A stretch of DNA of 64,000 bases, from assembly GCA_002010665.1 (NCBI GenBank), contig MTON01000022.1, forward strand, positions 59,966 to 123,965, written 5' to 3'. Both the position numbers and the translations under genes were made by a program. Positions 22,854 to 45,525 of the stretch are shown here, one piece after another. A model generated the notes under the pieces. It made no database searches and had not been told where the DNA came from. It saw only the letters and a list, made by a program, of their open reading frames with translations. The DNA is from Candidatus Aminicenantes bacterium JdFR-78. Its GTDB lineage: Bacteria; Acidobacteriota; Aminicenantia; JdFR-78. Position 1 is the stretch's first letter. The number at the start of each line of letters is the position of its first letter.

Positions 22854-24260
22854 TCAATTTTTATAATCTTCAGGAAAAATTTTGTTTCTTTTAAGAAGAG
22901 CTTGAAACTGCCTTCTATTCATTCCTATCTCTCGAGCTGCTCTTGATATATTTCCTTTATGTTTACTTAATAAGCTTATAGCAAATTTCCTTTCTACTTC
23001 TGAAGCTGCTCTTTGGCGTGCTATTTTTTTTGCTTTATTAAGTTCCTCTTTTGAGAAAGGAAATTTTACTTGTTCCTCAACAGCACTTAAAATTTCAGAT
23101 GGAATATCTCTTATAGTCAAGTTTCCATCAGGAGAAAGAATGAGCATACGCTTAATACAATTTTCAAGTTCGCGAACATTTCCTGGCCAATGATAGAGAG
23201 AAAAAACACTCAATATCTCTGGAGATACATTTATATTTGCATATCTCGTTAAACTTTTATATTTCTCAATGAAATGATTAACGAGTAAGGGAATATCTTC
23301 TAATCTTTCCCTTAATGGAGGAATTTTGATATTTAAAACGTTCAGTCTATAATACAAATCCATTCTAAAATTCCCTTTTTCTACCTCTTCTTTTAAATTT
23401 CGATTAGATGTGCATATTAATCTTATATTTAAATTTATAGGATTTACTCCTCCAATTCTCGTTATTTCATACTGCTCAATTGCTCTGAGAATCTTGGATT
23501 GAAGATTAAGAGGCATTTCAGCTATCTCATCTAAAAGGAGGGTGCCATTTTCAGCAATTTCGAATTTTCCTTTTTTAGTATAAATTGCTCCTGTAAAGGC
23601 GCCTCGTTCATGACCAAATAGTTCGCTTTCAAGCAGTTCTTTAGGAATGGCAGCACAATTAATAGCAACAAAAGGTCCATTAGCTCGAGGACTGTTTTTA
23701 TGAATGCCTCTTGCAATTAATTCTTTCCCTGTTCCACTTTCTCCCTCAATTAATACTGGCTCATTAGTTTGAGAAATTTGAGCACAAAGTCGAATAATTC
23801 TTTCCATCTCAGGGTTAGCAGTAATAATTTGTTCAAAACCATAATGTTTATCGAGTTCTTTTTTAAGCCTTATATTTTCCTTAATTAAGTTATGATAAGT
23901 CAAGCCTCTTTCAATTATTAATTCAACCTCTTTTATTTTAATTGGTTTTAGTAAATAATCATAAGCCCCTTTTTTCATTGCTTCCACAGCTGATTCAATT
24001 GTTCCATAAGCTGTCATAATAATTATTGGTATATTAGGATTAATTGCTTTTATTTCTTCTAATAAACTTATACCATTTATTCCTGGCAATCTTAAGTCAG
24101 TTAAAACAAGATCTATTTCAAAAGACTTTATAATATTTAGAGCTTCTTTACCATTTGTGGATATTATTATTTCATATCTATCCTTCAAATTAATTTCCAA
24201 AAGTTTACAAAGTTTAATTTCATCATCCACAATAAGAATTTTTTGTTTATTAGTGTTCAT
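22854..24260 (-). CDS. sigma-54-dependent response regulator (NtrC family)
   Basis: 468 aa; receiver domain (ILIVDDE...DLVLTDLRLPG); AAA+ sigma-54 activator core (GESGTGKE, GAFTGA, RELEN); C-terminal Fis-type HTH. Confidence 0.9.
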   Translation of the reverse strand: MNTNKQKILIVDDEIKLCKLLEINLKDRYEIIISTNGKEALNIIKSFEIDLVLTDLRLPGINGISLLEEIKAINPNIPIIIMTAYGTIESAVEAMKKGAYDYLLKPIKIKEVELIIERGLTYHNLIKENIRLKKELDKHYGFEQIITANPEMERIIRLCAQISQTNEPVLIEGESGTGKELIARGIHKNSPRANGPFVAINCAAIPKELLESELFGHERGAFTGAIYTKKGKFEIAENGTLLLDEIAEMPLNLQSKILRAIEQYEITRIGGVNPINLNIRLICTSNRNLKEEVEKGNFRMDLYYRLNVLNIKIPPLRERLEDIPLLVNHFIEKYKSLTRYANINVSPEILSVFSLYHWPGNVRELENCIKRMLILSPDGNLTIRDIPSEILSAVEEQVKFPFSKEELNKAKKIARQRAASEVERKFAISLLSKHKGNISRAAREIGMNRRQFQALLKRNKIFPEDYKN

Positions 24261-30155: not shown

Positions 30156-31409
30156 TTAAATATATTTTCTTGGATCTGTTATTTTACCATTTAGAGCAGA
30201 AGCAGCCACTGTAGCTGGGGAGGCTAAATAAATCTCTGCTTCCCTGCTCCCCATTCTTCCTTTAAAATTACGATTAGCAGTGCTCAGTGCTACCTCTCCT
30301 GGTGCTAAAACACCCTCATGAGCACCAAGACACGGACCACACCCAGGATTTAAGATCATACATCCTGCATCAATTAATGTTTCAATAATGCCTCTTTTTG
30401 TAGCCTCAAGCAGAACTTCTCTTGATGCAGGAAACACTAAGGCTCTCACTTCAGGATGAATTTTCTTCCCTTTTAATATTTTTGCTACAATTTCTAAGTC
30501 TTCAAGTCTTCCATTAGTGCAGGTTCCAATTAATGCCTGATTGAATTCCTTTCCTTCGAGTTCCTGAACTGATCGGACATTATCAACATTGTGGGGACAT
30601 GCTATCTGTGGATCTAAATTTGTAACATTAAATTCAACAATATTTTCATAGCAAGCATCGGGATCAGACTTGATTATTTCAAATGACTGTTTTGTTCTTT
30701 TCTCAAGCCAGGTTAAAGTCTTATCATCAGGCTCAAAGTAACCAATTTTTGCACCCATTTCAGCTGACATATTAGCAACCACCATTCTTGAAGAAACAGA
30801 AAATTCCTTTGCCACTTCCCCTGTAAATTCTACTGCCTTATAATTTGCTCCATCTGCTCCAAGAGTTCCAATAATGTGCAGAATAATATCCTTAGCATAA
30901 ACTCCCTTTGGAATTTTACCCTTTATAACAACTTTTATTGTCTCCGGTACTCTTAGCCAGATTTCATCAGTTGCCCAGATAACTGCTGCTTCGGAACGAC
31001 CAATACCTGCTGAAAAGGCTCCAAAAGCTCCATAAGTAGTTGTATGTGAATCACTTCCAAGTATAAGCTTACCCGGTAATGCGAATCCCTTTTCAGGCAA
31101 GACCTGATGACATATTCCATGATTTATATCATAAAAATTCGGGATTCCCTGCTCTTTAACAAATTCCCTTATTATTTTATGATTCAATGCATATTGTTCT
31201 GTGGATGGAGGCACTACATGGTCCAGAATGATTATAATTTTTTCCGGTGATTTTACTTTTTTTACCCCAAGTTTTTTAAACTCTCGAGAAATTGCAGCAG
31301 AATTATCATGCGACATTACAAGATCCGGACAAACTGTAACAATTTCTCCAGCTGAAACCTCTCTTCCTGCTTTTAAACTCAATATTATCTCCGCAAATGT
31401 CTTCCCCAT
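30156..31409 (-). CDS. aconitase-family dehydratase large subunit, LeuC/HACN (archaeal) type
   Basis: 417 aa; MGKTFAEIILS...; Fe-S and substrate motifs LGSDSHTTT, IGTCTNGR, NPGCGPCLGAHEG. Confidence 0.85.
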   Translation of the reverse strand: MGKTFAEIILSLKAGREVSAGEIVTVCPDLVMSHDNSAAISREFKKLGVKKVKSPEKIIIILDHVVPPSTEQYALNHKIIREFVKEQGIPNFYDINHGICHQVLPEKGFALPGKLILGSDSHTTTYGAFGAFSAGIGRSEAAVIWATDEIWLRVPETIKVVIKGKIPKGVYAKDIILHIIGTLGADGANYKAVEFTGEVAKEFSVSSRMVVANMSAEMGAKIGYFEPDDKTLTWLEKRTKQSFEIIKSDPDACYENIVEFNVTNLDPQIACPHNVDNVRSVQELEGKEFNQALIGTCTNGRLEDLEIVAKILKGKKIHPEVRALVFPASREVLLEATKRGIIETLIDAGCMILNPGCGPCLGAHEGVLAPGEVALSTANRNFKGRMGSREAEIYLASPATVAASALNGKITDPRKYI

Positions 31410-31538
31410 TTTAAGCCTCCATTACTCTCTTTATATAAGCTAAAAACTTACAACTAAAATTTAAAATTATTTTTTCATTAATACTCAAAATATAATTTGA
31501 TATCTTTGAAATTTTTTTACATTTTACCATTTACTAGT

Positions 31539-32069
31539 TCACTTAAATGGCTCGAAATTTACGAAATCAGCATGATGCACGATGATTGCTTCTACTGTTC
31601 TTTTTACTATTTCCCCCTCTTTAGAATGAGCTGCTATTATATGAACTATTTCCTCAGGAATACCAAATTTATAGGCGAGAGCAGCTCCAGATACTGGATG
31701 CCTTATTATCTTCCCCATTTTACTTTTAATAAATTTTTCTCCTTCCTTTTTAAATTCGTATAATTTTCCCACATCATGAAGGAGTGCACCTGCTATTAAA
31801 TAATCCTGATTTATATGAATTTTTTCTTTATACACATCTATCATTGCATCAGCAATCCTCAAACAAGTAAGAGTTACTGCTCTCGTATGGTTTATTATGT
31901 TTGCAGGAGGATCATCTATTAAAAGAGTAAATGGCATTTCTAGTAAATCTTCTATTTTCCAGTTATTTTCCCTTAAGGCATATTCCCATACCTTAAGAGT
32001 CTTTTCCAATAAATCTTTATCCTGAATCAAATTAAACTCTGGTATTAATTCCATTAATTCCTTTCTCAT
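31539..32069 (-). CDS. HD-domain phosphohydrolase
   Basis: 176 aa; metal-binding H...HD...D pattern (INHTRAV, LLHDVGK, HHADF). Confidence 0.7.
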   Translation of the reverse strand: MRKELMELIPEFNLIQDKDLLEKTLKVWEYALRENNWKIEDLLEMPFTLLIDDPPANIINHTRAVTLTCLRIADAMIDVYKEKIHINQDYLIAGALLHDVGKLYEFKKEGEKFIKSKMGKIIRHPVSGAALAYKFGIPEEIVHIIAAHSKEGEIVKRTVEAIIVHHADFVNFEPFK

Positions 32070-32079
32070 TTTTTACTCC

Positions 32080-32856
32080 TTATAATTTTCTCTCCTCAGG
32101 CCCATCATATTCGTGATCAGTTGGATGTATTTTTCTCATGGGCTTCATTCTCGTTTTTTCCTCATAGATATGAGCTATTAATCCTGGAACTCTTGCCATT
32201 ATGAAAAAGGAATTCCCCAGTTCCTTAGGTATTCCAAGCTCACACAAGAGGGCTGCTATTGCTCCATCAACATTAATTGGTAAAGTCTTTCCTAGCACTT
32301 TTTCAAGGCCTTTCTCAAAGGCTTTTGCAATACTAACATATTTGCCTGAAAACCCGAGTTCTTTAGCTAGAGAAAATAACTTTTGAGTCCTAGGATCCTT
32401 TGTATGAATTCGATGTCCGAATCCGGATATTCTCTCACCTTTTTCTTTCTTTTCTTTTATAATCTCCGATACAACCTCTTCCTCTGAAAGTCCTTTCTCT
32501 CCCATTCTCTTCAAGGCATCCTCAAAAACTCCCATTGCCTCTTCTATTGCCCCACCATGATATTTGGAAATAGCAAGAATTCCTGCAGAAACCGCACTAT
32601 TTAAATCTGCACCAGTTGACACAACTGTTCGAGCAGTGAGAACAGATGGTGGTGTTGCGCCATGGTCAATTGATGAAACTAATATAGCGTCAATTAACTT
32701 CCCAACCTTTTCTGAAGGAAGTTCTCCCTTTAAAGCGAGATAAATTGCCTGAGAAAATGTAATTCTTCCCATTAATTCATGAAGGGGATAGCCTCTCAGA
32801 AAAATTTTATTAGGTTCTATTTTAGTAATTGCTGTTTTCCAGTGAAGTTCGGACAT
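32080..32856 (-). CDS. ccl: citryl-CoA lyase-like protein (homologue of citrate-synthase / ATP-citrate-lyase C-terminal half)
   Basis: 258 aa; aligns to the C-terminal half of citrate synthase including the catalytic signature GFGHRIHTKDPR and FFIMARVPGLIAHIYEE; follows SucC-like and SucD-like genes in the same order as in fused ATP-citrate lyase. Confidence 0.7.
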   Translation of the reverse strand: MSELHWKTAITKIEPNKIFLRGYPLHELMGRITFSQAIYLALKGELPSEKVGKLIDAILVSSIDHGATPPSVLTARTVVSTGADLNSAVSAGILAISKYHGGAIEEAMGVFEDALKRMGEKGLSEEEVVSEIIKEKKEKGERISGFGHRIHTKDPRTQKLFSLAKELGFSGKYVSIAKAFEKGLEKVLGKTLPINVDGAIAALLCELGIPKELGNSFFIMARVPGLIAHIYEEKTRMKPMRKIHPTDHEYDGPEERKL

Positions 32857-32894
32857 TTTACCTCCTTACCGATTTTTATTTTTTATTATTTCTT

Positions 32895-33797
32895 TTATTT
32901 TAAATTCTGGGAGATTTCAAAGGCTTTTTCCGGTATATCCATAAATGAATCTACTACATGAACTCCTGCTTCTCTCAATCTTTTTACTTTACTTTCATAT
33001 GAGCCCCTTAAACCTTCAATTATTGCACCAGCATGGGAGAATCTGGTGCCTGATTTTGCAGCTTTTCCCCCTATAAAAGCTACTATTGGCTTTGTTACCT
33101 CTCCTTTTTCAATCAATTCAGCGACCCTTTCCTCTTGGGTTGTTCCTATTTCACCAAACATTGCAATTAATTTTGTCTGTTCATCTTCTTCGAAAAGTTT
33201 TATAACTTCTGGAAGAGATAATCCAATTACTGGATCACCTCCAACATGAATAATTGTGCTCTGACCCAATCCCTTTTGGGTCAAATAGTAAGATATTGCA
33301 GAAGTAATACCTCCACTTCTTGAACAAACGCCAACAAAACCCGGCCTAAACCACTGGCGGGCTGTCTCAGCTCTTCCTCCAATCATTCCTAAAATAGCCT
33401 TTCCAGGGGCCAGAAGACCGAGTGTATTTGGCCCAACAAACTTTGCATTTGTTTGACGTGCATATTCTACTATTTCAAGAACATCATAAATCGGGACTCT
33501 ATCAGGAATTAAAACGAGAAGTTTCACTCCTGCCTCTAAAGCCTCAAGAGCAGCATCCTTAACAAGAGGAGCAGGAACAAAAATTACGCTTGCATCAAAT
33601 GGTCCTTTCTCCTCCCATGCCTCCTCAACAGTATCAAAGACTGGCACTCCGAGAACCTCCTCCCCACCTCTTCCAGGTGTTACTCCTGCAACAATATTCG
33701 TTCCGTAATCCTTCATTAATTTTGTTCGTGTTCTTCCCTCTCTACCCGTAATTCCTTGAACCAAAACCCTTGTTTTTTCATTTACTAATATTCCCAT
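32895..33797 (-). CDS. ccsB: succinyl-CoA-synthetase alpha-like subunit (CoA-binding + CoA-ligase); candidate citryl-CoA synthetase small subunit
   Basis: 300 aa; SucD-like motifs VQGITGREG, VCSRSGGIT, GGDPVIG, phospho-His context TRFSHAGAII. Confidence 0.7.
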   Translation of the reverse strand: MGILVNEKTRVLVQGITGREGRTRTKLMKDYGTNIVAGVTPGRGGEEVLGVPVFDTVEEAWEEKGPFDASVIFVPAPLVKDAALEALEAGVKLLVLIPDRVPIYDVLEIVEYARQTNAKFVGPNTLGLLAPGKAILGMIGGRAETARQWFRPGFVGVCSRSGGITSAISYYLTQKGLGQSTIIHVGGDPVIGLSLPEVIKLFEEDEQTKLIAMFGEIGTTQEERVAELIEKGEVTKPIVAFIGGKAAKSGTRFSHAGAIIEGLRGSYESKVKRLREAGVHVVDSFMDIPEKAFEISQNLK

Positions 33798-33798
33798 T

Positions 33799-35358
33799 TT
33801 ACTCTCTTCCCTTTATAAGATTTTCCCTGTATTCCTTCAGTCCGAGAATCGGCAGATAGATATATATTGCTTTCTGTTCATGAAATTGACAGAATATTTC
33901 ACAGGCCAAACATTCAGTGCACCGACCTTTCCTCACCTCCTCTGCATCCATTGATAGAACTGGTTTTCCGTCATCTAATTTCAGAACACCATAAATACAT
34001 TCTTCAACACATCCTTTAGTTTTACACTTTCCGCATCTCTCATGCTCAATAAATACTTTCCCAGTCAATGTTTCAAATGAATATGCATTTTCAGGTTCTT
34101 TAAATTCTTCAATTGGATTAATCTTGTGAATGACTCTTTCTCCCTCCTCAACCAATTTTCTTAACCGTTCAGCACAAAAATCAGGAGAATCATCCCTTCC
34201 ATATCCTTCAACTTTCCCTGGAATATTTTTTAAATAAGTATTTAAGATCTCGATTGCTTTTTCCTCGTAATTTCCTCCGAGTCTGATTACTGCAGGAATT
34301 GAGAGCTTTTCCTCTATAAAAGCTTTAACAAACCCGCGTGCAGAGTGGAACTGTTCCTGAGAAGCAACCCCTGAACCAGATGCAAAATAACCAATTATAT
34401 TTGGTTGAGAGAGAATTATTTTTGCTGCTCGATAGACTTTGGAGGCTGGTGGATTTCCGCTAGTATCACAATAATTTGCTAATCTGAAACCTTTATTTAA
34501 AACAGCATCCATTGACATCATTGAACCTCCACCTCCTGCCCCATGAAAGCCTATATAATTACCTTCTGGGTCAGGGCTTTCAGTCATTTGAAAGAAATAA
34601 AACGTCCCTCTGTAATCCTTTTCTTCCACTTGATACGCAATTTTTTCAAGTTCAGTTGCAGGACGATCAAATTCTCTTGCTATTTCGATACCAAGTTCTG
34701 GATGACGGAATACTGCATAATCATCTACGACCAAATGACAATCTGCTGCAAATATCTCGCCATCTGAAGTTAAAACTAAAGGATTAACTTCAATAGAGCG
34801 TGCATCATATTCAACTGCTAATTCATAGAGCTTCACTAAAAAGCTCGAAAGTTTTAATAATAGTTTTCCCTTTATCCCTGTTTTTCTTATTAGATTTCTT
34901 GCCTCATATGTTTTAAATCCCTTTAATAAATTGATATAATGCTTGGAAATTCTGGAAGGATGTTCTCTGGCAATTTCTTCGATTCCACTTCCACCTACTG
35001 AGCTAAAAATTACCAAAGGGGATTTCCTAGAATCATCAATAACCAGACCAGCGAAGAACTCTCTTTCAATATCGAGCTTCTCCTCCACTAGAATCTTCTC
35101 AACTTTAAAATTTTTAACCTCCATCCCAAATAGTTCTTTGGACAATTCTCGAGCTTCTTCTGGCTTTTCAGCAAATTTAATTCCTCCTAAGGTTGCCCTA
35201 CCTGTTGTCCATACCTGAATTTTTAACACAACAGGTTTAGCTATCTCTTTTGCAATCTGATAAACTTCATCAGGACTTGATGCAACTCTTCCGTGAGGAA
35301 CTTTAATTCCCTTACTTCTCAGTAATTCCTTACTCTGGTATTCATATAGCCTTGCCAC
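33799..35358 (-). CDS. ccsA: succinyl-CoA-synthetase beta-like ATP-grasp subunit fused to C-terminal 2x Cys4 ferredoxin-like domain; candidate citryl-CoA synthetase large subunit
   Basis: 519 aa; N-terminal roughly 400 aa SucC-like (MARLYEYQSKELLRSKGIKVPHG...EVNPLVLTSDGEIFAADCHLVVDDYAVFRHPEL...GAGGGGSMMSMDAV); C-terminal roughly 100 aa with CGKCKTKGCVEEC and CTECLACEIFC cysteine clusters. Confidence 0.7.
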   Translation of the reverse strand: MARLYEYQSKELLRSKGIKVPHGRVASSPDEVYQIAKEIAKPVVLKIQVWTTGRATLGGIKFAEKPEEARELSKELFGMEVKNFKVEKILVEEKLDIEREFFAGLVIDDSRKSPLVIFSSVGGSGIEEIAREHPSRISKHYINLLKGFKTYEARNLIRKTGIKGKLLLKLSSFLVKLYELAVEYDARSIEVNPLVLTSDGEIFAADCHLVVDDYAVFRHPELGIEIAREFDRPATELEKIAYQVEEKDYRGTFYFFQMTESPDPEGNYIGFHGAGGGGSMMSMDAVLNKGFRLANYCDTSGNPPASKVYRAAKIILSQPNIIGYFASGSGVASQEQFHSARGFVKAFIEEKLSIPAVIRLGGNYEEKAIEILNTYLKNIPGKVEGYGRDDSPDFCAERLRKLVEEGERVIHKINPIEEFKEPENAYSFETLTGKVFIEHERCGKCKTKGCVEECIYGVLKLDDGKPVLSMDAEEVRKGRCTECLACEIFCQFHEQKAIYIYLPILGLKEYRENLIKGRE

Positions 35359-35501
35359 TTTTCCCTCCCCTAAAATATTAGGAAATAATTATTATAATTG
35401 TCAATAAAAAAAACCCAATAAAATTTTTAAAAAATCCGACATATATATATAGAGGGGAAAAATGGGAAGGTATGTGAGAAGGTAAAAGGCGGGGGTGAGT
35501 A

Positions 35502-35563: not shown

Positions 35564-35944
35564 CTATTCAACCCAAATTTTCACTGTTTCATTTTCTTCA
35601 TTTATTTCAATCAAACAGAGAGGACCTAATTTTTTTAATTCATAAAAAAACTTCTTTAATTCTATCTTACAATTATCCTCCATTCGAAACTTAGCTTCAG
35701 GACAGGAATTCACAATCAATTCCATGAGTGAAATTGGAATAGTGATTCTAACCTTCGGCTTCTGAGTTCTGGTATCAACTACTAAAATTTTGAACCATTT
35801 TACTTCTTCTCTCTTTATTTTCTCCTTTCCAATAGCCTTTTTAATAATCTTGTAATCTTCCTTTGAAGGGGAATTTAAAACCGAGGACAAACTAACACTA
35901 TAAACAAGACCAAGAATTAAAATAAAAAGAGATAATTTTTTCAT
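35564..35944 (-). CDS. secreted protein carrying the shared ~65-aa IW(I/V/L)E C-terminal domain
   Basis: 126 aa; signal peptide; C-terminus KVRITIPISLMELIVNS...LGPLCLIEINEENETVKIWVE aligns to the C-termini of the 35941-36795 and 38166-38588 products. Confidence 0.5.
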   Translation of the reverse strand: MKKLSLFILILGLVYSVSLSSVLNSPSKEDYKIIKKAIGKEKIKREEVKWFKILVVDTRTQKPKVRITIPISLMELIVNSCPEAKFRMEDNCKIELKKFFYELKKLGPLCLIEINEENETVKIWVE

Positions 35945-36795
35945 GGTAAATCCTCCTTTTTTATTTTCTCAATCCAGATTTTAATAATTTCTTTTTCGTC
36001 CTCTATTTCAATTGAAAGTCCAGAAGATAAATCTTTAAGAATTTTATCTATATCATAGCCCTTTTCTCTAATAATTTCCTTCTGTTTGTCAGAAAGAGCT
36101 TTAAATGCTAAATCAGCCAAGGAGAAAGGAATATTTATCGATACTACTGGCTTACTCTTCCCTTTTTCATAAACTCTAATTTTTAATATTTCTTTCTTAT
36201 ATTCTTCTTTCTCCTGAATTTCTTTTAGTAAATACGGGTCTATTCGTAGAAGAGCTATTTTTGCCCTGTCTTTCAATTCCTCATTCCTCTCTTTTGAGAT
36301 AATTTCCTTAAGAATTGGAACACCTTTTTTTGCTATTTTTTTATCCTTGAAATAACTGAACTTAAAGGCAGTATAATATCGAACTAATTTATTTGGACTT
36401 TTTAAATAACCTTCTAATTTTTTAAAATATCCCGTGTAACCTTCATGATACAAATCAAACATTATATCAATTATTGATATCTCAGCTTCTTCTTTTAAAT
36501 TTTTATTTTTATTTACTTTTATAAATTCTTCATATGTGCTTAGAGCCTCTTTCCTCTTCCCGAGTTCCTCAAGACATTTCCCTTTATAAAAGAGAGCAAT
36601 TGAATAATACCTGCTGTTTCTGTAATTCCTTAATAATTCATTTAATTTTTTAAGAGCTTTTTCCCACTCTTCATCGAACATCAAAATCTTGGCTTGATTT
36701 AGCAATTCCTTATCTTTTGATTGGGATAAGGAAGAGAAGCCGAGTATAAAGTTAACCATAAAGAGAATTAATGTGAAAATTATTATTTTCCTCAT
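35941..36795 (-). CDS. secreted TPR protein with the shared IW(I/V/L)E C-terminal domain
   Basis: 284 aa; signal peptide; TPR-like helices; C-terminus VVSINIPFSLADLAFKALS...GLSIEIEDEKEIIKIWIE. Confidence 0.55.
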   Translation of the reverse strand: MRKIIIFTLILFMVNFILGFSSLSQSKDKELLNQAKILMFDEEWEKALKKLNELLRNYRNSRYYSIALFYKGKCLEELGKRKEALSTYEEFIKVNKNKNLKEEAEISIIDIMFDLYHEGYTGYFKKLEGYLKSPNKLVRYYTAFKFSYFKDKKIAKKGVPILKEIISKERNEELKDRAKIALLRIDPYLLKEIQEKEEYKKEILKIRVYEKGKSKPVVSINIPFSLADLAFKALSDKQKEIIREKGYDIDKILKDLSSGLSIEIEDEKEIIKIWIEKIKKEDLP

Positions 36796-36806
36796 TTTCC
36801 CCTCAT

Positions 36807-37580
36807 TTAACTTAATTCTTTTTCAATTAGTCTGATTCTAAATAGTAATTGTTCTTTTTCTATAATTTGTTGAATTTTCTTAATATTTTCAAAATCAGGT
36901 TGTTCTTTCAACTGAATAACATCATAAAATAGAAATTCTATTTGATTGCAAATTCTCCTCGCCTTCATTAAACTCAAACTATCCAGTTTTTCATCGAAAT
37001 ATTTTTTTTGAATCAAAAGGTCTTTTGCCCTTTTTGAGGTAAGATCAATTGTCCATGGATCAACTTCCTCTGGTGAGGTGAATTTCATTAAATCCGTAAG
37101 CAATAACTGACTTTGTTTTAAATATTCAACTGTTTCTTTCCTTGCGACAGAATATTCCATATTTTCAAAAGAGGATGACGAAACAAAAAATTCATTCTTT
37201 GCAAAATGTTTTTTCGACCAGGGTTGAAATAGAATTAATATTGTTATTCCTATTATGATAATTAAGGATATAACTGCAGTTAAAATCGGATTTAATTTCA
37301 TGATTTTAAGGTGATACACCCTTTTCTCACGGATAATCTCTCTCTCAATTCTTCTCATAATCATTGAAGGAATATTTTCCCAGTTAATTGTATTTATTGT
37401 TTCATTAATTTCCCTTTTATTATCTTCCAGATTTTCAAATAAAATTTTTAAATTTTTAAATTCTTTGAAACAGTCCTCACATTCTTTCAAGTGATTTTTT
37501 ACAAAATTAATTTTCTTATACGACAATTCTTCAAGATAAAATGAAATCAATAATTTTCTAATTTTTCTGCATTTTCTCAT
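36807..37580 (-). CDS. ZAS-type anti-sigma factor, single-pass membrane
   Basis: 257 aa; HLKECEDC (HxxxCxxC) near N-terminus; TM helix (ILTAVISLIIIIGITILILF); overlaps the ECF sigma gene by 23 nt. Confidence 0.65.
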   Translation of the reverse strand: MRKCRKIRKLLISFYLEELSYKKINFVKNHLKECEDCFKEFKNLKILFENLEDNKREINETINTINWENIPSMIMRRIEREIIREKRVYHLKIMKLNPILTAVISLIIIIGITILILFQPWSKKHFAKNEFFVSSSSFENMEYSVARKETVEYLKQSQLLLTDLMKFTSPEEVDPWTIDLTSKRAKDLLIQKKYFDEKLDSLSLMKARRICNQIEFLFYDVIQLKEQPDFENIKKIQQIIEKEQLLFRIRLIEKELS

Positions 37581-38157
37581 TTTTATTTCCCCTTATAAAT
37601 CTATTAACTATGCTCTGTAAACTTTTAATAGCTCTATGATTCAGGGATTTTGCTGTGCCAATAGAGATTTTCATAATTTTGGAAATTTCATTGTATTTAA
37701 GTCCTTCATAATACTTCATAATAAAAACCATCTTTTGTTTGTAAGGTAAGTACTGAATGGATTTTTTAAGAATTTCTTTAAAATCAGAAGCAGAACTCTG
37801 TCTTTCATCCAGTGTATGAACCGTATGATTTTCCTTTAATTTATTTATCAACTTATTAGTTCTATGTAATTTCCGATAATGATCGATACACAAATTAGAT
37901 GCTATCTTATAAATCCAGTTTTGAAAGTTTCTTCCTTCTGTAAAATATTTTATTTTCTGATAAACTCTTAAAAATGTTTCCTGAACTATCTCCATAGCCT
38001 CTTCCTCATCCTGAAAATAACAATAGGCGAGTCTAAATATCTTTTTCTGATAAAGTTTGATGAGAAAATTAAATGCTTCTTTATCCCCGCATTTAATTCT
38101 TCTGATAATTTCTTTCTCTGGTTCATTTTTCTTTTTTATTTCCTTTCCTGACTGCAT
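37558..38157 (-). CDS. ECF-type RNA polymerase sigma-70 factor
   Basis: 199 aa; region 2 (IFRLAYCYFQDEEEAMEIVQETFLRVYQKIKYF...WIYKIASNLCIDHYRK) and region 4 (KMVFIMKYYEGLKYNEISKIMKISIGTAKSLNHRAIKSLQ). Confidence 0.8.
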   Translation of the reverse strand: MQSGKEIKKKNEPEKEIIRRIKCGDKEAFNFLIKLYQKKIFRLAYCYFQDEEEAMEIVQETFLRVYQKIKYFTEGRNFQNWIYKIASNLCIDHYRKLHRTNKLINKLKENHTVHTLDERQSSASDFKEILKKSIQYLPYKQKMVFIMKYYEGLKYNEISKIMKISIGTAKSLNHRAIKSLQSIVNRFIRGNKNEKMQKN

Positions 38158-38165
38158 TAATTGAC

Positions 38166-38588
38166 TTACTCAAGCCAGATTAAAATGCTAGTATTTTCTT
38201 CGAGATCTTCAACTTCTAACAATAAACCTGGGCCAAGCTCTGATAAATTGGTGAACTTACTCCAGTCAATATCGAAATAAGAAGAAGTAGAATTTTCAAT
38301 CTCATATTTTGCATGTTTCAAACCCATTTTCAGGATAAGCTCTACAAGCCACATTGGTGCTGAAATTCTTATTAGATCCCTGGACTCTCCATCATAGACT
38401 AATAAGTTCAGTTTATGAGCTATATGCTTTCTCTCAGGATACTTTTCATGTATTTTCTGAATTTCATTTTTCGCCTTTTCAATTACTCTTGAAGGATATT
38501 TAACATTTTCCTGAATTTGAAGAACAAAACATCCATTTAAAATAAAAAGACTTAAAATAACAATCAGTATAAAAATTTTTTTAGTCAT
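38166..38588 (-). CDS. lipoprotein with the shared IW(I/V/L)E C-terminal domain (first gene of ECF operon)
   Basis: 140 aa; lipobox LNGC; C-terminus LIRISAPMWLVELILK...LGPGLLLEVEDLEENTSILIWLE. Confidence 0.55.
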   Translation of the reverse strand: MTKKIFILIVILSLFILNGCFVLQIQENVKYPSRVIEKAKNEIQKIHEKYPERKHIAHKLNLLVYDGESRDLIRISAPMWLVELILKMGLKHAKYEIENSTSSYFDIDWSKFTNLSELGPGLLLEVEDLEENTSILIWLE

Positions 38589-42081: not shown

Positions 42082-42603
42082 TTATTTTTTTGCGTACTTA
42101 AATAAATTCCCTGCTTTATAAATTTCGTATTGAACTTTGCTCACTGGATTTGCCTGAAACTTCATTTTCTTTGTAAGATTCTCAATCTCTCCTGTCAGAA
42201 GATCTACTTCTACTTTATCTCCATTTTCAAAACAACTCAGTTTTTCATCAAGCTCTGGGAATGTCAAAATAGCGAGACCTGAATTAATTGCATTTCTTTT
42301 GTAAATAGCTCCGAAGGACTGTGCAATTATTAATGAAATCCCCAATGAAATAAAACAATCTACTGCCTGCTGGCGGGAGGACCCTGCACCAAAGTTCTTA
42401 CCTGCTAAAATAATGTCTCCTTTTTTAGCTTTTTTAGAAAAATCCTCCCATCCTTTTAAATTTCCAAGTGCATATTTTCCCATTTCATTTATATCAGTTA
42501 TGTGCAAGTAAGCATTATGATAAATCTGATCTGTATCTATATCATTTATTAATTTTCCCTTTTCATCTATTAAAATCCAGATTCTTCCTTTTATCTTTTC
42601 CAT
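42082..42603 (-). CDS. aconitase-family small subunit, divergent LeuD-like
   Basis: 173 aa; swivel-domain motifs DTDQIYH and AGKNFGAGSSRQQAV; directly downstream of the divergent LeuC-like gene. Confidence 0.75.
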   Translation of the reverse strand: MEKIKGRIWILIDEKGKLINDIDTDQIYHNAYLHITDINEMGKYALGNLKGWEDFSKKAKKGDIILAGKNFGAGSSRQQAVDCFISLGISLIIAQSFGAIYKRNAINSGLAILTFPELDEKLSCFENGDKVEVDLLTGEIENLTKKMKFQANPVSKVQYEIYKAGNLFKYAKK

Positions 42604-42611
42604 TTTTATTC

Positions 42612-43859
42612 CTAAATTTTATTCGGATTTATTATCTCTCCTGCAATACATGATGAGGCTACAACTGCTGGACTCGCCAAATAAGTCATTCCCTTCCCCT
42701 GTTTTCCAGCAAAATTTCTGTTTCCAGTGCTTATCTGAACCTCTCCTCTTCCTGTAAGACCAGCATGCCCTTCTGCACATCCTCCACAGCCCGGATTTAA
42801 AATTATCGCACCTGCTTTAAATAAAATTTCAATTATCCCCTTTTCCAACAATTTTTTGTAAACTCTTTTTGTTGCAGGAACAATGACTAGCCTGACCCCT
42901 TGCCTTATTTTCTTTCCTTGGAGGATTTTTGATGCTAATTCTATATCCTCTACTCGTCCATTCGTGCACGAACCAATAAATCCAGAATCAATTTTTATAT
43001 TTCTTAAATCAGAGACGTCTTTAACATTAGACGGAGAAAAAGGAACAGCCACGTGAGGAGTCAAGCCCTCTATATCAATTTCAATTATTTCACTATAATT
43101 AGCGTCCTGATCAGCCTTTACTGGTTCAATATCTTTTCCAATAAAATCCTTTAACTCTGAAAGTCTTTTCTGATTAAAGGAAGTAAATCCAATTATGCCT
43201 CCCATCTCTGTTACCATGCTGCAAAGGGTGATTCTTTCAGCAATGGATAAGTTTTCTATGGCTTCTCCATAAAATTCAATTGCCTTACCAAGAGCTTTTT
43301 CAGTGCCAAGATTTTTTAATATGAATAATGTTAAGTCTTTCGCAGTTGCAGGATAGTTAAATTTACCATTAATAATCACTTTTAATGTTTCTGGAACTTC
43401 AAACCATGTCTTTCCAGTTCTAAAGGCGAAGGTAATATCAACATCGCCCATTCCCTGTCCAAAACAACCAACTGCACCTAAAATATTTAAATGGCTGTCT
43501 GTCCCAACAACTGTGGTATTTGGAAGAGCTAAACCCTCCTCCATTAGAACATGGGAACCAATGCCCATATCAACATCAAAGATTTTAATACCGTGTTTCT
43601 TAGCAAATTCTCTGCAAATTTGTTGGTTGTCAGCATATTTAAGTGTTTTTGCAGGTGCAACCAAGTCAAAGGTGAAAAAAGTTTTTTCAGGATCTGCAAC
43701 CCGTTGATCACCATACTCTCTTTCGTAATTCTTTACCACATTTGCTCCACCAAAATCCCGGGCTGAACGAATATCAAGATCCATCCAGACAATTTTTCCA
43801 GGACTTACTTCTTCATTCGTGTGTAATTGAATTATTTTTTCGATTATTGTCTTTCCCAT
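42612..43859 (-). CDS. aconitase-family large subunit, divergent LeuC-like
   Basis: 415 aa; VGTDSHLNI, IGSCTNGRVEDI, NPGCGGCAEGHAG; N-terminal region differs from the canonical LeuC at 30156-31409. Confidence 0.8.
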   Translation of the reverse strand: MGKTIIEKIIQLHTNEEVSPGKIVWMDLDIRSARDFGGANVVKNYEREYGDQRVADPEKTFFTFDLVAPAKTLKYADNQQICREFAKKHGIKIFDVDMGIGSHVLMEEGLALPNTTVVGTDSHLNILGAVGCFGQGMGDVDITFAFRTGKTWFEVPETLKVIINGKFNYPATAKDLTLFILKNLGTEKALGKAIEFYGEAIENLSIAERITLCSMVTEMGGIIGFTSFNQKRLSELKDFIGKDIEPVKADQDANYSEIIEIDIEGLTPHVAVPFSPSNVKDVSDLRNIKIDSGFIGSCTNGRVEDIELASKILQGKKIRQGVRLVIVPATKRVYKKLLEKGIIEILFKAGAIILNPGCGGCAEGHAGLTGRGEVQISTGNRNFAGKQGKGMTYLASPAVVASSCIAGEIINPNKI

Positions 43860-43865
43860 TTTTTC

Positions 43866-44993
43866 TTAAAGTTTATCAGCAACTGCTTTTGCAACATCTA
43901 GAGTTGAAGCATTACCTCCCATATCATAGGTGCGAACTTTTCCCTCCTTAATTACTTCAGCAATTGCATTCTCCAGTCTCTGAGCTTTTTCATTTTCGCC
44001 GAGCCAGTCGAGCATCATCTTTGTTGCCAAAAGCATTGCAATTGGATTCACCTTATATTGACCAGCATATTTTGGTGCAGAGCCATGGGTTGGTTCAAAA
44101 ACAGCATAATTATCACCTATATTACCTGCACATGCAAAACCCAGACCACCCACTAACTGTGCTGCTAAATCAGAAATAATATCACCAAAAAGATTCTCAG
44201 CTACAAGCACATCATAGTCCTCTGGATTTTTTACAAGCCACATTGCCATGGCATCTACATTTGCCTCCCATAATTCCACATCTGGATATTCCTTTGCAAT
44301 TTCTCTTGCAACTTTTAGCATCAAACCTCCTGTTTCTCTTAAAACATTTGGCTTTTCAACAACTGTTACTGACTTTCTTTTGTATTTTCTTGCATATTCA
44401 AAAGCTTGTCTTACAATTCTCTCACAACCTTTTTTTGTCATAATCCTTGTTGAAATTGCTATTTCATCAGCTGGAACATCCTTAAATTTTTCCATCTTTG
44501 GATGAATTAGTAGAGCCTCTCTCACCTTATCAGGAAGAGGATGAAACTCAACACCAGCATACATTCCTTCTGTATTTTCTCTGAATATCACCAAATCTAT
44601 TCCATCTCTGTAATTAAGGGGATTTCCTGAATAGGCTTTACAAGGTCTTAAATTTGTATAAAGATCAAATTCCTGACGAAGTCTCACGATTGGGCTGAAA
44701 TAGGTATAGCCTTTTCCACGCAATGAAGGATCAAGCTCCTTCTCAGCATCTTCCTTTGGCTTCGAAGTTATAGCTCCAAATAAGCAGACATCGGTTTCTC
44801 TCAATAACTCAAGAGTTCTATCCGGGAGAGGATTTCCCTCTGTACACCAGTATTTCCATCCGATCTCTCCTTCAAAGTATTCAGCGTCAAGTTCGATTTT
44901 TTCAAGAACAATTTTCGCCGCATCCATAACATCATTTCCTATTCCATCTCCCGGTAAAAGGGCTATTTTATATTTAGCCATTAATCCCTCCAA
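43866..44993 (-). CDS. isocitrate / isopropylmalate dehydrogenase family (beta-decarboxylating dehydrogenase)
   Basis: 375 aa; KIALLPGDGIGNDV; LRQEFDLYTNLRP; NLFGDIISDLAAQLVGGLG; substrate-loop region resembles IDH/homoisocitrate DH as much as LeuB. Confidence 0.85.
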   Translation of the reverse strand: MEGLMAKYKIALLPGDGIGNDVMDAAKIVLEKIELDAEYFEGEIGWKYWCTEGNPLPDRTLELLRETDVCLFGAITSKPKEDAEKELDPSLRGKGYTYFSPIVRLRQEFDLYTNLRPCKAYSGNPLNYRDGIDLVIFRENTEGMYAGVEFHPLPDKVREALLIHPKMEKFKDVPADEIAISTRIMTKKGCERIVRQAFEYARKYKRKSVTVVEKPNVLRETGGLMLKVAREIAKEYPDVELWEANVDAMAMWLVKNPEDYDVLVAENLFGDIISDLAAQLVGGLGFACAGNIGDNYAVFEPTHGSAPKYAGQYKVNPIAMLLATKMMLDWLGENEKAQRLENAIAEVIKEGKVRTYDMGGNASTLDVAKAVADKL

Positions 44994-45030
44994 TTTATGA
45001 AATTTGAAATTTGAATAATGTGTTTAATTT

Positions 45031-45525
45031 CTATTTTCCAGCTTCTAATTTCTTCTTAGTATAGGCTATCAGTCCTCCTTCTTTTAGAATCTGAACAACT
45101 GATTCCGGAAGTGGAGGAAAATTAAATGTTCTCTTTTCTGTGATTATTTTCCCTTCATTAAAATCTATTTCGATTTCCTCTCCATTTTGTATAGCATCAA
45201 CTGCCTGTGCACATTGAATAACTGGTAAACCCTGGTTTATCGCATTTCTAAAAAATATTCGTGCAAATGATTTAGCAATAATTGCTCCGACTCCTGCGTA
45301 TTTCAAACAAGTTGCTGCCTGTTCACGTGAACTCCCGCAACCAAAATTTTTTCCAGCTACTATAATATCTCCCTTCTTCACATTTTTAGAAAAATCAGGG
45401 TCAAGGTCTTCGAGAGCATGCTTTGCCATTTCTTCTGGATCTGTTATGGAATAAGTGTATTTACCAGGGAAAATTACATCCGTGTTGATATTATCACCAT
45501 ATTTCCAGACCTTACCCCTAATCAT
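45031..45525 (-). CDS. 3-isopropylmalate-dehydratase-type small subunit (canonical archaeal-type LeuD)
   Basis: 164 aa; [17 protein letters not shown]; [14 protein letters not shown]. Confidence 0.8.

What the first reader, a model, noticed from the sequence alone, without database searches (positions are those of the whole stretch)
30156..35358. Split ATP-citrate-lyase-type citrate cleavage cluster (citryl-CoA synthetase SucC/SucD homologues + citryl-CoA lyase) next to a LeuC-type aconitase-family subunit
Seen in sequence: consecutive minus-strand genes encode a SucC-like ATP-grasp subunit (33799-35358), a SucD-like CoA-binding/phospho-His subunit (32895-33797) and a 258-aa protein (32080-32856). 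The last aligns to the C-terminal half of citrate synthase, including the catalytic GFGHR(I/V)...DPR signature. This is the domain order of ATP-citrate lyase (AclB, then AclA N-half, then AclA C-half) broken into three genes. That is the citryl-CoA synthetase (CcsAB) plus citryl-CoA lyase (Ccl) arrangement described for Hydrogenobacter and Leptospirillum, the presumed ancestral two-step citrate cleavage of the reductive TCA cycle. An HD-domain hydrolase and a canonical LeuC/HACN-type large subunit (30156-31409) follow in the same transcriptional direction. This hints that a LeuCD-type enzyme may act as the aconitase/isomerase here. Inference: this AT-rich uncultivated bacterium may run an rTCA-type or reverse citrate-cleavage route.
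Basis: partly seen in the sequence, partly recalled or inferred. Interest (0 to 1): 0.7.

Follow-up and report, generated by a model that had tools for sequence, protein, structure and literature searches.

The report
Split ATP-citrate-lyase-like operon with ferredoxin module
An uncultivated Aminicenantes bacterium carries a conserved operon that most likely splits or makes citrate through citryl-CoA with ATP, using an uncharacterised branch of the succinyl-CoA-synthetase family that carries an iron-sulfur-type domain; the enzyme type has been predicted before but never tested.

Summary
Five co-directional minus-strand genes encode a SucC-like beta subunit, a SucD-like alpha subunit, a 258-aa citryl-CoA-lyase (CCL) homologue, an HD-domain protein and a LeuC-type subunit.

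The citrate-cleavage reading is largely supported:
- CCL is 46% identical to the characterised Hydrogenobacter enzyme.
- The order beta-alpha-CCL-HD-LeuC holds in about 60-76 species-level genomes of Aminicenantes and Calditrichia.
- In Planctomycetota, orthologues of alpha and CCL are fused into one protein, as in ATP-citrate lyase.

Three points need correction:
- The synthetase is not a Hydrogenobacter-type CcsAB. Its beta subunit falls in a third clade, outside both canonical succinyl-CoA synthetases and the CcsA/AclB group, and has its own acid-binding loop.
- It carries a conserved 8-cysteine ferredoxin-like tail. In archaeal and Chloroflexi relatives this tail is a separate small gene.
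- An rTCA lifestyle is not shown. No other rTCA genes lie in the window, and the same module occurs in heterotrophic lineages.

The missing LeuD partner, an isocitrate-dehydrogenase-family gene and a second LeuCD pair lie at 42-45.5 kb. They are contiguous with the cluster in most relatives.

Thiel et al. 2017 and a 2022 preprint already predicted this enzyme type. I rate it a new variant of a known kind, biochemically untested.

The parts
33799..35358 (-). Beta subunit of an ADP-forming acyl-CoA synthetase: ATP-grasp domain, acid-binding domain and a C-terminal ferredoxin-like tail. It belongs to a third clade, here called D-type.
   Evidence: Pfam and NCBIfam. More than 100 homologue clusters of about 515-530 aa, those with an organism name being Aminicenantes. 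Motif table and NJ tree. AF2 model with pLDDT 88.4.
33844..34086 (-). Ferredoxin-like 2x[4Fe-4S]-type domain of the beta subunit (about aa 425-505). The cysteines are C442, C445, C450, C454, C480, C483, C486 and C490.
   Evidence: All 8 Cys are present in 64 of 65 family members. The tail is homologous to a separate 90-97-aa ORF lying between beta and alpha in archaeal and Anaerolineales loci. Pfam Fer4_9 scores only 20.9 bits, below the cutoff of 27. Model pLDDT is 89-95. No solved SCS, CCS or ACL chain aligns beyond about 450 columns.
32895..33797 (-). Alpha subunit (CoA-binding, phospho-histidine motif SHAGA)
   Evidence: It is 57% identical to the N-terminal half of the Planctomycete alpha-CCL fusion proteins. 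It has a 6-aa insertion relative to all solved SCS alpha chains.
32080..32856 (-). Citryl-CoA lyase (short citrate-synthase-fold protein)
   Evidence: NCBIfam NF004869 scores 277.1, above the cutoff of 212. PDB 6hxp E=2.7e-62. It is 46% identical to H. thermophilus CCL, with H65, H100, H148, R156, D197 and R222 invariant.
31539..32069 (-). HD-domain protein, a conserved accessory of unknown role
   Evidence: It lies immediately downstream of CCL in 76 of 76 informative loci. Orthologues with 40% identity follow the alpha-CCL fusion in Planctomycetota (HMM E=2e-65). No relative was found in PDB by sequence.
30156..31409 (-). LeuC-type (aconitase-family) large subunit 1
   Evidence: NCBIfam NF001614 scores 584.8, above the cutoff of 385; no equivalog cutoff is reached. 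It lies within 1.6 kb of CCL in 60 of 63 loci.
45031..45525 (-). LeuD-type small subunit 1, the presumed partner of 30156-31409, displaced in this genome
   Evidence: It is contiguous with LeuC417 in L001 and most other loci.
43866..44993 (-). Isocitrate/homoisocitrate-dehydrogenase-family enzyme
   Evidence: no equivalog cutoff is met. The best PDB matches are NAD-IDH 6lky and Thermus homoisocitrate dehydrogenase, ahead of isopropylmalate dehydrogenases. It is 66% identical to the Gemmataceae operon member.
42082..43859 (-). Second LeuC/LeuD-type pair (42612-43859 and 42082-42603)
   Evidence: It is conserved at the end of the operon. In Calditrichia and Planctomycetota an MmgE/PrpD-family protein lies downstream of Iso_dh, and the Calditrichia loci hold no LeuCD hit.
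35375..35404 (-). Promoter-like site upstream of the beta-subunit start
   Evidence: TTGACA-18-TAATAT, 10 of 12 matches. This is a consensus match only.

Best explanation
The locus encodes a split ATP-citrate-lyase-like system.

Proposed mechanism (inferred from the characterised CCS/CCL and ACL enzymes):
1. The alpha/beta synthetase uses ATP to phosphorylate a histidine on alpha.
2. It activates citrate, via citryl-phosphate, to citryl-CoA.
3. The short citrate-synthase-fold lyase interconverts citryl-CoA with acetyl-CoA plus oxaloacetate.

Both steps are near equilibrium, so the module is reversible.

It is co-organised with an aconitase-family hydro-lyase pair and an isocitrate-dehydrogenase-family enzyme. 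Together they would form a compact citrate / isocitrate / 2-oxoglutarate branch.

The synthetase belongs to an uncharacterised third clade of the SCS/CCS/ACL superfamily. This clade always comes with a ferredoxin-like module, fused here and a separate small subunit elsewhere. In the CCL-linked lineages it also comes with an HD-domain protein.

What is shown: gene content, conservation, fusion, clade placement and motif differences.

What is inferred: the substrate (citrate), the mechanism, the role of the Fe-S-type module (I favour a structural or redox-sensing role, because Planctomycete orthologues keep the tail but have lost most of the cysteines), and the physiological direction. On direction I lean towards cleavage of citrate made from amino-acid-derived 2-oxoglutarate, not towards a full autotrophic rTCA cycle.
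For: 1. CCL identity: NCBIfam citryl-CoA lyase cutoffs are passed. The protein is 46% identical to the biochemically and structurally characterised H. thermophilus CCL, and the residues I equate, from my own knowledge of citrate synthase, with its catalytic and oxaloacetate-binding positions are invariant.

2. Linkage across 80 species-representative loci: alpha directly upstream of CCL in 67 of 71; beta in 51 of 53; HD downstream in 76 of 76; LeuC in 60 of 63; Iso_dh in 41 of 50.

3. Rosetta-stone fusion: more than 120 protein clusters of about 570 aa in Phycisphaerales and Gemmataceae fuse an alpha (57% identical) to a CCL (51% identical). They are preceded by a beta of the same clade and followed by the HD orthologue.

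4. The beta and alpha subunits score below curated SCS cutoffs. Beta lacks the SCS signature (NGAGL, GGGA, NIFGGITRC). It shares GGGGS and (S/G)GNPPA with CcsA and ACL-beta.

5. Partner swapping: relatives of the same clade pair with a CitE-like lyase in Bathyarchaeia, Anaerolineales and other loci, and with an HMG-CoA-lyase-like protein in L094. The clade is therefore consistently a synthetase for a lyase-cleavable hydroxyacyl-CoA.

6. A Gemmataceae locus has the same operon logic: beta, alpha-CCL, HD, fused aconitase-family protein, Iso_dh, PrpD.

7. Reversibility: published standard-state free energies at 1 mM are -5.9 kJ/mol (CCS) and -2.1 kJ/mol (CCL) (PMC13147460).
Against: - Only 2-3 of the 8 CcsA citrate-contact positions listed for 6HXQ (bioRxiv 10.1101/2022.10.25.513756) are matched. 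The ANNT/ANFT loop and the Arg are replaced by (V/I)ASQ and Leu.
- Over the whole protein, the beta subunit is more similar to Thermus SCS (244 bits) than to CcsA (122 bits).
- A sister subclade in Aminicenantes (motif ANFTDTS) has beta-alpha without an adjacent CCL. In L002/L003 and L084 a class II aldolase follows; in L085 peptidase genes follow.
- The fused aconitase-family orthologue in Gemmataceae passes the NCBIfam homoaconitase equivalog (739.9 > 529.9). The dehydrogenase's best NCBIfam match is homoisocitrate dehydrogenase, below cutoff.
- There are no biochemical data for any member of the clade.
Confidence: 0.65

Rival explanations
1. The system uses the same two-step chemistry on a different hydroxy-acid, most plausibly homocitrate (2-oxoglutarate + acetyl-CoA <-> homocitryl-CoA <-> homocitrate). 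The LeuCD-type enzymes would then act as homocitrate dehydratase and homoaconitase, and the dehydrogenase as homoisocitrate dehydrogenase. This would link 2-oxoglutarate and 2-oxoadipate.
For: - The Gemmataceae fused orthologue of LeuC417/LeuD164 scores 739.9 on TIGR00139 homoaconitase (cutoff 529.9).
- The dehydrogenase's best NCBIfam model is AksF2 homoisocitrate dehydrogenase.
- Two distinct dehydratases (two LeuCD pairs, or LeuCD plus PrpD-like) recall pathways in which dehydration and rehydration are split.
- The acid-binding loop differs from that of CcsA and ACL.
Against: - The CCL residues I equate with citrate synthase's oxaloacetate-binding residues (H148, R156, R222; own knowledge) are invariant in the alignment with the citryl-CoA-specific Hydrogenobacter CCL.
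- To my knowledge, no citrate-synthase-fold enzyme using 2-oxoglutarate has been described.
- The dehydrogenase's closest solved relatives are isocitrate dehydrogenases, narrowly ahead of Thermus homoisocitrate dehydrogenase.
- No other lysine/aminoadipate-pathway genes were seen among the window ORFs I scanned or among the genes called in the L169 and L170 loci.
Confidence: 0.15
2. The alpha/beta pair is simply the organism's succinyl-CoA synthetase. It lies in a TCA-cycle gene cluster next to an unusual short citrate synthase, with no direct coupling between them.
For: - Whole-protein similarity is highest to Thermus and archaeal SCS subunits.
- Sources annotate the genes as SCS.
- SCS genes can sit next to citrate synthase. 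Locus L149 has an SCS-like beta/alpha pair (28% and 44% identical to the window proteins) followed by a citrate-synthase-like ORF of about 426 aa.
- The ANFTDTS subclade lacks an adjacent CCL.
Against: - Both subunits score below the curated SCS cutoffs.
- The SCS acid-site signature (N, GG, GITR) is absent from the beta subunit.
- The clade separates from canonical SCS with bootstrap 86-88.
- Alpha-CCL fusion proteins exist.
- The partner lyase is swapped for a CitE-like or an HMGL-like protein in related loci.
- The 258-aa protein lacks the N-terminal half of citrate synthase.
Confidence: 0.08
3. The cluster is the citrate-cleaving step of a complete autotrophic reductive TCA cycle in this bacterium.
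For: - CCS/CCL and ACL are regarded as the key enzymes of the rTCA cycle (PMC9802188, PMC13147460).
- A Planctomycete bin with this enzyme type was predicted to be autotrophic (PMC5459899).
Against: [quoted passage not shown]
- Aminicenantes are reconstructed as fermentative heterotrophs (PMC5459899, PMC4897734).
- The same module occurs in Gemmataceae and Phycisphaerae, next to amino-acid-catabolic genes in the Phycisphaerae locus.
- The whole genome could not be inspected.
Confidence: 0.1

Closest known systems
Citryl-CoA synthetase (CcsAB) plus citryl-CoA lyase (Ccl) of Hydrogenobacter thermophilus (PDB 6HXQ, 6HXP; Aoshima et al. 2004)
   Same: - Three separate genes give the domain order ATP-grasp beta, CoA-binding phospho-His alpha, short citrate-synthase-fold lyase.
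- The lyase is 46% identical.
- The beta subunit shares the GGGGS and GNPPA motifs.
   Different: - The beta subunit lies outside the CcsA/AclB clade.
- The citrate-contact loop ANNT...R is replaced by VASQ...L.
- There is an extra ferredoxin-like domain.
- There is a conserved HD partner.
- The genes are clustered with LeuCD-type and Iso_dh genes.
Putative Planctomycete CCS/CCL and its ccsB-ccl fused form, described bioinformatically by Thiel et al. 2017 (PMC5459899) as intermediate between Aquificae CCS-CCL and type II ACL
   Same: This is very likely the same enzyme family. Planctomycete alpha-CCL fusions are 57% and 51% identical to the window's alpha and CCL. Their beta subunit is 43-45% identical and carries the same D-type motifs.
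   Different: - The window version is split.
- It is from Aminicenantes.
- It keeps all eight cysteines of the ferredoxin-like tail, whereas the two Planctomycete betas examined have lost most of them.
- That paper's section on the reductive TCA cycle (section 17) mentions neither the tail, the HD protein nor the operon partners.
ATP-citrate lyase AclAB (Chlorobium limicola 6HXJ) and the postulated type II ACL (Magnetococcus Mmc1_3638/3639)
   Same: The overall reaction logic and domain complement are the same.
   Different: - The window system is not fused.
- The beta subunit is in a different clade.
- Its relation to type II ACL could not be tested, because no type II sequence was available to the tools.
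Succinyl-CoA synthetase (Thermus aquaticus 3UFX; Aeropyrum pernix 2YV2)
   Same: It is the best whole-protein and fold match. The alpha subunit is very SCS-like.
   Different: - Both subunits score below the curated family cutoffs.
- The acid-site signature is absent.
- The beta subunit has a ferredoxin-like tail.
- The genes are operonic with, and in relatives fused to, a lyase.

Membership tests
Two-step citrate cleavage system CCS/CCL | SucC-like large subunit plus SucD-like small subunit with a phospho-histidine motif | tested here: met
   Pfam ATP-grasp_2, and CoA_binding plus Ligase_CoA. SHAGA is present in the alpha subunit (sequence; alignment).
Two-step citrate cleavage system CCS/CCL | Short citrate-synthase-fold lyase with the catalytic His/His/Asp | tested here: met
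   NF004869 277.1 > 212 and NF004866 257.2 > 245. 6hxp E=2.7e-62. H100, H148 and D197 are invariant. The NF004864 equivalog cutoff is not reached (237.8 < 261).
Two-step citrate cleavage system CCS/CCL | Large subunit belongs to the CcsA/AclB clade | tested here: not met
   NJ tree of 118 sequences with 100 bootstraps. The CcsA/ACL clade has bootstrap 84, canonical SCS 86, and the window's D-type group splits from both at 88. This is NJ only, and the deep order is unresolved.
Two-step citrate cleavage system CCS/CCL | CcsA citrate-contact residues (F270, G296, G297, A327, N328, N329, T330, R363) | tested here: not met
   The window has A,S,G,V,A,S,Q,L in the MAFFT alignment, and 2 of 8 matches in the HMMER alignment.
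Two-step citrate cleavage system CCS/CCL | Citrate-, ATP- and CoA-dependent citryl-CoA formation and cleavage | not testable with these tools
   This needs an enzyme assay.
ATP-citrate lyase (AclAB) | Alpha subunit fused to the lyase domain | tested here: not met
   In the window the genes are separate, 38 nt apart. The fusion is present in Planctomycete orthologues.
Succinyl-CoA synthetase | Curated family score cutoffs for both subunits | tested here: not met
   TIGR01016 258.4 < 375.55; NF001913 256.4 < 370; TIGR01019 311.7 < 353.2; NF004230 307.2 < 336.
Succinyl-CoA synthetase | Beta-subunit signature motifs NGAGL, GGGA and NIFGGI(T/V)R | tested here: not met
   The window has GAGGGGS, TSGNPPA and SGSGVASQEQ instead.
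Citrate synthase | Full-length enzyme including the N-terminal half of the citrate-synthase profile | tested here: not met
   The protein is 258 aa. The Pfam match covers only profile positions 162-355 of 357.
Aconitase/IPM isomerase/homoaconitase large subunit | Family-level and function-level (equivalog) cutoffs | tested here: inconclusive
   Subfamily cutoffs are met (NF001614 584.8 > 385). No equivalog cutoff is met: HacA 512 < 550, LEU2 487 < 611, aconitate hydratase 345 < 612.
2x[4Fe-4S] ferredoxin domain | Two four-Cys motifs and a ferredoxin fold | tested here: inconclusive
   Eight Cys are conserved in 64 of 65 sequences. Pfam Fer4_9 scores 20.9, below the cutoff of 27. The model is confident. 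Cluster binding is untested.

The most novel reading that the evidence does not exclude
The D-type synthetases are a third, uncharacterised branch of the SCS/CCS/ACL superfamily.

Two features define the branch:
- an obligatory ferredoxin-like module, either fused or a separate small subunit;
- an (A/S)SQ acid-binding loop.

The branch pairs modularly with three unrelated acyl-CoA C-C lyase folds: citrate-synthase-fold CCL, CitE-fold and HMG-CoA-lyase-fold. That would make it a general 'ATP-dependent hydroxy-acid lyase' toolkit.

In anaerobes the Fe-S module would make citrate cleavage or formation respond to redox state. The HD protein would be a dedicated accessory factor.
Probability: 0.35. 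Interest if true: 0.75.

Novelty: new variant of a known kind. Interest (0 to 1): 0.58.

Why it matters
ATP-dependent citrate cleavage is the signature step used to call rTCA carbon fixation from genomes, and it is central to ideas on how the Krebs cycle originated.

This work shows three things:
- A large, widespread clade of SCS-annotated genes in Aminicenantes, Calditrichia, Planctomycetota, Bathyarchaeia and Chloroflexi is probably not SCS. It is more likely a lyase-coupled hydroxyacyl-CoA synthetase.
- The clade carries an Fe-S-type module unknown in solved SCS, CCS or ACL structures.
- The clade occurs in heterotrophs, in operons with aconitase- and IDH-family genes.

If confirmed, this would change TCA-cycle reconstructions for abundant sediment lineages. 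It would also caution against reading CCS/CCL-type genes as proof of autotrophy, and it would add an intermediate form to the CCS/CCL-to-ACL fusion story.

Tried and rejected
- tRNA and Rfam scans of the window found nothing.
- A sequence search of PDB with the HD protein found nothing. The HD protein next to a CitE-type cluster in Anaerolineales shares only generic HD similarity with it.
- I considered that the beta subunit's closeness to Thermus SCS meant it is an SCS. I rejected this as decisive because a bona fide CcsA-type representative (P0180) also has Thermus SCS as its second-best hit.
- I considered that the alpha-CCL fusion in L156 was an assembly artefact. I rejected this after finding more than 120 independent clusters with the same architecture.
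- The metagenome scan used one permissive pattern and returned mostly canonical SCS. Only about 20 loci were informative.
- The specificity of the LeuD loop (GKYTYS, against YLVY in isopropylmalate isomerase and YLRT in homoaconitase) and of the dehydrogenase could not be resolved.
- Three things could not be done. I could not test whether the same genomes also hold a canonical SucCD, a citrate synthase or other rTCA enzymes. I could not compare with the type II ACL of Magnetococcus. I could not inspect how the ferredoxin-like tail packs in the model, because no coordinates were accessible.
- The tree is NJ with a simple distance correction, not maximum likelihood.

Full report
**Observation**

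The five minus-strand ORFs are present exactly as described. Domain scans confirm the following:
- an ATP-grasp SucC-like protein;
- a CoA-binding SucD-like protein;
- a 258-aa protein that matches only the C-terminal half of the citrate-synthase profile;
- an HD-domain protein;
- a LeuC-type aconitase-family subunit.

Gaps between the genes are 1, 38, 10 and 129 nt. A sigma-70-like site precedes the first gene.

The organism is an Aminicenantes bacterium. A 100% identical beta subunit occurs in JGI metagenomes. More than 100 clusters at 67-87% identity have the same length; every cluster that carries an organism name is named Candidatus Aminicenantes/Aminicenantia.

**What the three core proteins are**

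The 258-aa protein is a citryl-CoA lyase homologue.
- It passes three NCBIfam citryl-CoA-lyase subfamily cutoffs.
- Its best solved relative by far is Hydrogenobacter thermophilus CCL (6hxp, E=2.7e-62). Citrate synthases score E=1e-23 or weaker.
- It is 46% identical to that enzyme. H65, H100, H148, R156, D197 and R222 are invariant in the alignment. By my own knowledge of citrate synthase, these are the catalytic and oxaloacetate-binding positions.

The SucC- and SucD-like proteins fall below the curated succinyl-CoA-synthetase cutoffs. Over their whole length they nevertheless resemble Thermus and archaeal SCS more than Hydrogenobacter CcsAB.

A search restricted to the beta subunit's C-terminal, acid-binding domain changes the picture. 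CcsA becomes the top solved hit, tied with Thermus SucC. The alignment shows motifs shared with CcsA (GGGGS, GNPPA.K.Y..KIILS.P); the ACL-type representatives carry them as well.

**A third clade**

I collected representatives at 50% identity, tabulated motifs and built a bootstrapped NJ tree of 118 sequences. The sequences resolve into three groups:
- canonical SCS beta subunits (bootstrap 86), including Thermus and Francisella;
- a CcsA/ACL-beta clade (bootstrap 84), including 6hxq_B;
- a third group, here called D-type, split from both at bootstrap 88, to which the window protein belongs.

At the eight citrate-contact positions reported for CcsA (bioRxiv 10.1101/2022.10.25.513756), the groups read as follows:

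| Group | Residues at the eight positions |
|---|---|
| CcsA | FGGANNTR |
| ACL-like | (A/S)SGANFTR |
| SCS | NGG-GITL |
| D-type | (A/I/V)SG(V/I)ASQ(L/I) |

The synthetase is therefore neither a bona fide SCS nor a Hydrogenobacter-type CCS.

**The ferredoxin-like module**

The beta subunit ends in a roughly 95-aa tail with two four-Cys motifs.
- All eight Cys are present in 64 of 65 family members drawn from the fetched loci.
- AlphaFold models the tail confidently (pLDDT 89-95; whole protein 88.4).
- No solved SCS, CCS or ACL chain extends into it.

In D-type relatives without the tail, a 90-97-aa ORF lies between the beta and alpha genes. These relatives include sequences named Bathyarchaeia, Geothermarchaeales, Nitrososphaerales and Anaerolineales. 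The small ORF aligns with the window's tail, including the Cys motifs. ORFs of the same kind lie between beta and alpha in L097, L099, L102 and the A3-subfamily loci.

In the two Planctomycete orthologues examined the tail is kept but most cysteines are lost. This argues for a structural or regulatory role, not an obligatory redox role. That reading is an inference.

**Evidence that the synthetase works with the lyase**

1. Synteny. I anchored 80 species-representative loci on CCL. The neighbours are as follows:

   | Neighbour of CCL | Loci with it / informative loci |
   |---|---|
   | alpha directly upstream | 67 / 71 |
   | beta upstream | 51 / 53 |
   | HD directly downstream | 76 / 76 |
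   | LeuC-type within 1.6 kb | 60 / 63 |
   | Iso_dh downstream | 41 / 50 |

2. Fusion. A contig (L156) encodes one ORF that is 57% identical to the window's alpha and 51% identical to its CCL. More than 120 clusters of about 570 aa share this architecture. Those with an organism name come from Phycisphaerales, Phycisphaeraceae and Gemmataceae. In the two loci examined, L169 and L170, the fusion gene is preceded by a D-type beta and followed by an orthologue of the HD protein (40% identity, HMM E=2e-65).

3. Partner swapping. Other D-type subfamilies are followed by a different lyase:
   - a CitE-like lyase, whose best NCBIfam match is citrate lyase beta subunit at 214-280 bits, below its cutoff;
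   - an HMG-CoA-lyase-like protein in L094.

   The clade is thus consistently a synthetase for a lyase-cleavable hydroxyacyl-CoA.

**The wider operon**

In most relatives the order is beta, alpha, CCL, HD, LeuC, LeuD, Iso_dh, LeuC, LeuD. In this window the last four genes lie at 45525-42082, upstream of an ECF-sigma cluster. This is a rearrangement specific to this lineage.

- Calditrichia loci have CCL, HD and Iso_dh. In L080 a full-length PrpD-like gene follows; L077 has two shorter ORFs with similar sequence; L072 ends soon after Iso_dh.
- A Gemmataceae locus has a fused 659-aa aconitase-family protein, most similar to LeuC417 plus LeuD164. It also has an Iso_dh 66% identical to the window's, and a PrpD-like protein.

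This supports a citrate / isocitrate / 2-oxoglutarate branch.

There is a real alternative. The Gemmataceae protein passes the NCBIfam homoaconitase equivalog. The dehydrogenase's best NCBIfam model is a homoisocitrate dehydrogenase, below cutoff. Its closest solved relatives are NAD-isocitrate dehydrogenases, narrowly ahead of Thermus homoisocitrate dehydrogenase. None of the window's LeuCD-type or Iso_dh proteins reaches an equivalog cutoff.

**Physiology**

Aminicenantes are reconstructed in the literature as fermentative heterotrophs (PMC5459899, PMC4897734). The same module occurs in Planctomycetota, beside amino-acid-catabolic genes in the Phycisphaerae locus.

Published free energies (CCS -5.9 kJ/mol, CCL -2.1 kJ/mol; PMC13147460) make the module reversible. 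By my own estimate, low cellular oxaloacetate favours the cleavage direction.

I therefore favour a branch running from 2-oxoglutarate to acetyl-CoA plus oxaloacetate in a fermenter. The reverse, ATP-conserving citrate synthesis for glutamate, is a serious alternative. A complete autotrophic rTCA cycle is not supported.

**Prior art and novelty**

Thiel et al. 2017 (PMC5459899, section 17) described Planctomycete genes annotated as SCS subunits and citrate synthase as putative CCS/CCL. They noted relatives with a ccsB-ccl fusion and placed them between Aquificae CCS-CCL and type II ACL.

A 2022 preprint reports CCS homologues in Acidobacteria and Caldithrix.

In the parts of these papers that I read and in my literature searches, I found no description of the following:
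- the ferredoxin-like module;
- the conserved HD partner;
- the distinct acid-binding loop;
- the lyase-swapping pattern;
- the LeuCD/Iso_dh operon in Aminicenantes.

No member of the clade has been characterised biochemically. I rate it a new variant of a known (predicted) kind.

**Unexplained**

- A sister subclade in Aminicenantes (motif ANFTDTS) has beta-alpha without an adjacent CCL, usually followed by a class II aldolase. Whether these are paralogues within the same genomes could not be tested.
- The function of the HD protein is unknown.

Noticed in passing
window 42082-45525 (minus strand): LeuD (164 aa), Iso_dh (375 aa), LeuC (415 aa) and LeuD (173 aa) form a block. In most Aminicenantes this block directly follows the LeuC at 30156-31409. 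Here it sits upstream of the cluster, so the LeuC and its presumed LeuD partner are 13.6 kb apart.
   Followed up: yes
window 35564-38588 (minus strand): An ECF sigma factor, a zf-HC2-type anti-sigma factor, a TPR protein and small secreted proteins lie just upstream of the beta-subunit gene. The same trio lies upstream in many related loci (L001 and about 30 others). This may indicate a regulatory link.
   Followed up: partly
L086, L087, L088, L097, L099, L102: Loci with a tail-less D-type beta subunit, whose named relatives are Bathyarchaeia, Nitrososphaerales and Anaerolineales: beta, a 90-100-aa Cys-rich ferredoxin-like ORF, alpha, then a CitE-like lyase. The Anaerolineales locus also has an HD protein and a PrpD-like protein.
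   Followed up: partly
L094 4189-7757: In a high-GC metagenome contig, a third D-type subfamily has beta, a ferredoxin-like ORF and alpha, followed by an HMG-CoA-lyase-like (DRE-TIM) protein. This suggests a different hydroxyacyl-CoA substrate.
   Followed up: partly
L002/L003, L084, L085: An Aminicenantes subclade of the tail-bearing beta subunit (motif ANFTDTS) is not next to CCL. In L002/L003 and L084, but not in L085, a class II aldolase gene directly follows or overlaps the alpha gene. In L002/L003 an NfnAB-like pair follows.
   Followed up: partly
L169 7445-9001; L170 7434-8930: Planctomycete beta subunits keep the C-terminal tail but have lost the first Cys motif entirely and half of the second. 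A degenerate, probably cluster-free version of the module.
   Followed up: partly
L170 11492-13471: A Gemmataceae fused aconitase-family protein in the same operon position scores 739.9 bits on the NCBIfam 'homoaconitase' equivalog (cutoff 529.9). As far as I recall, that model was built on fungal homoaconitases.
   Followed up: partly
L156 near 10680-10734: The contig end translates to LLYTSPSPRD / LSLIHISEPTRL-type sequence. This looks like sequencing-adaptor read-through at the end of a public metagenome contig.
   Followed up: no
window 4866-7454 and 9488-11236: An 862-aa CHAT-domain protein with TPR repeats and a 582-aa TPR protein flank an outer-membrane FadL/TodX-type gene and lie upstream of an AcrB-type gene.
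   Followed up: no
window 20636-21856: One 406-aa protein combines DUF438, a hemerythrin domain and a PAS_10 domain. A sigma-54 response regulator (22854-24260) and a multi-pass sensor histidine kinase (24250-26373) lie downstream.
   Followed up: no
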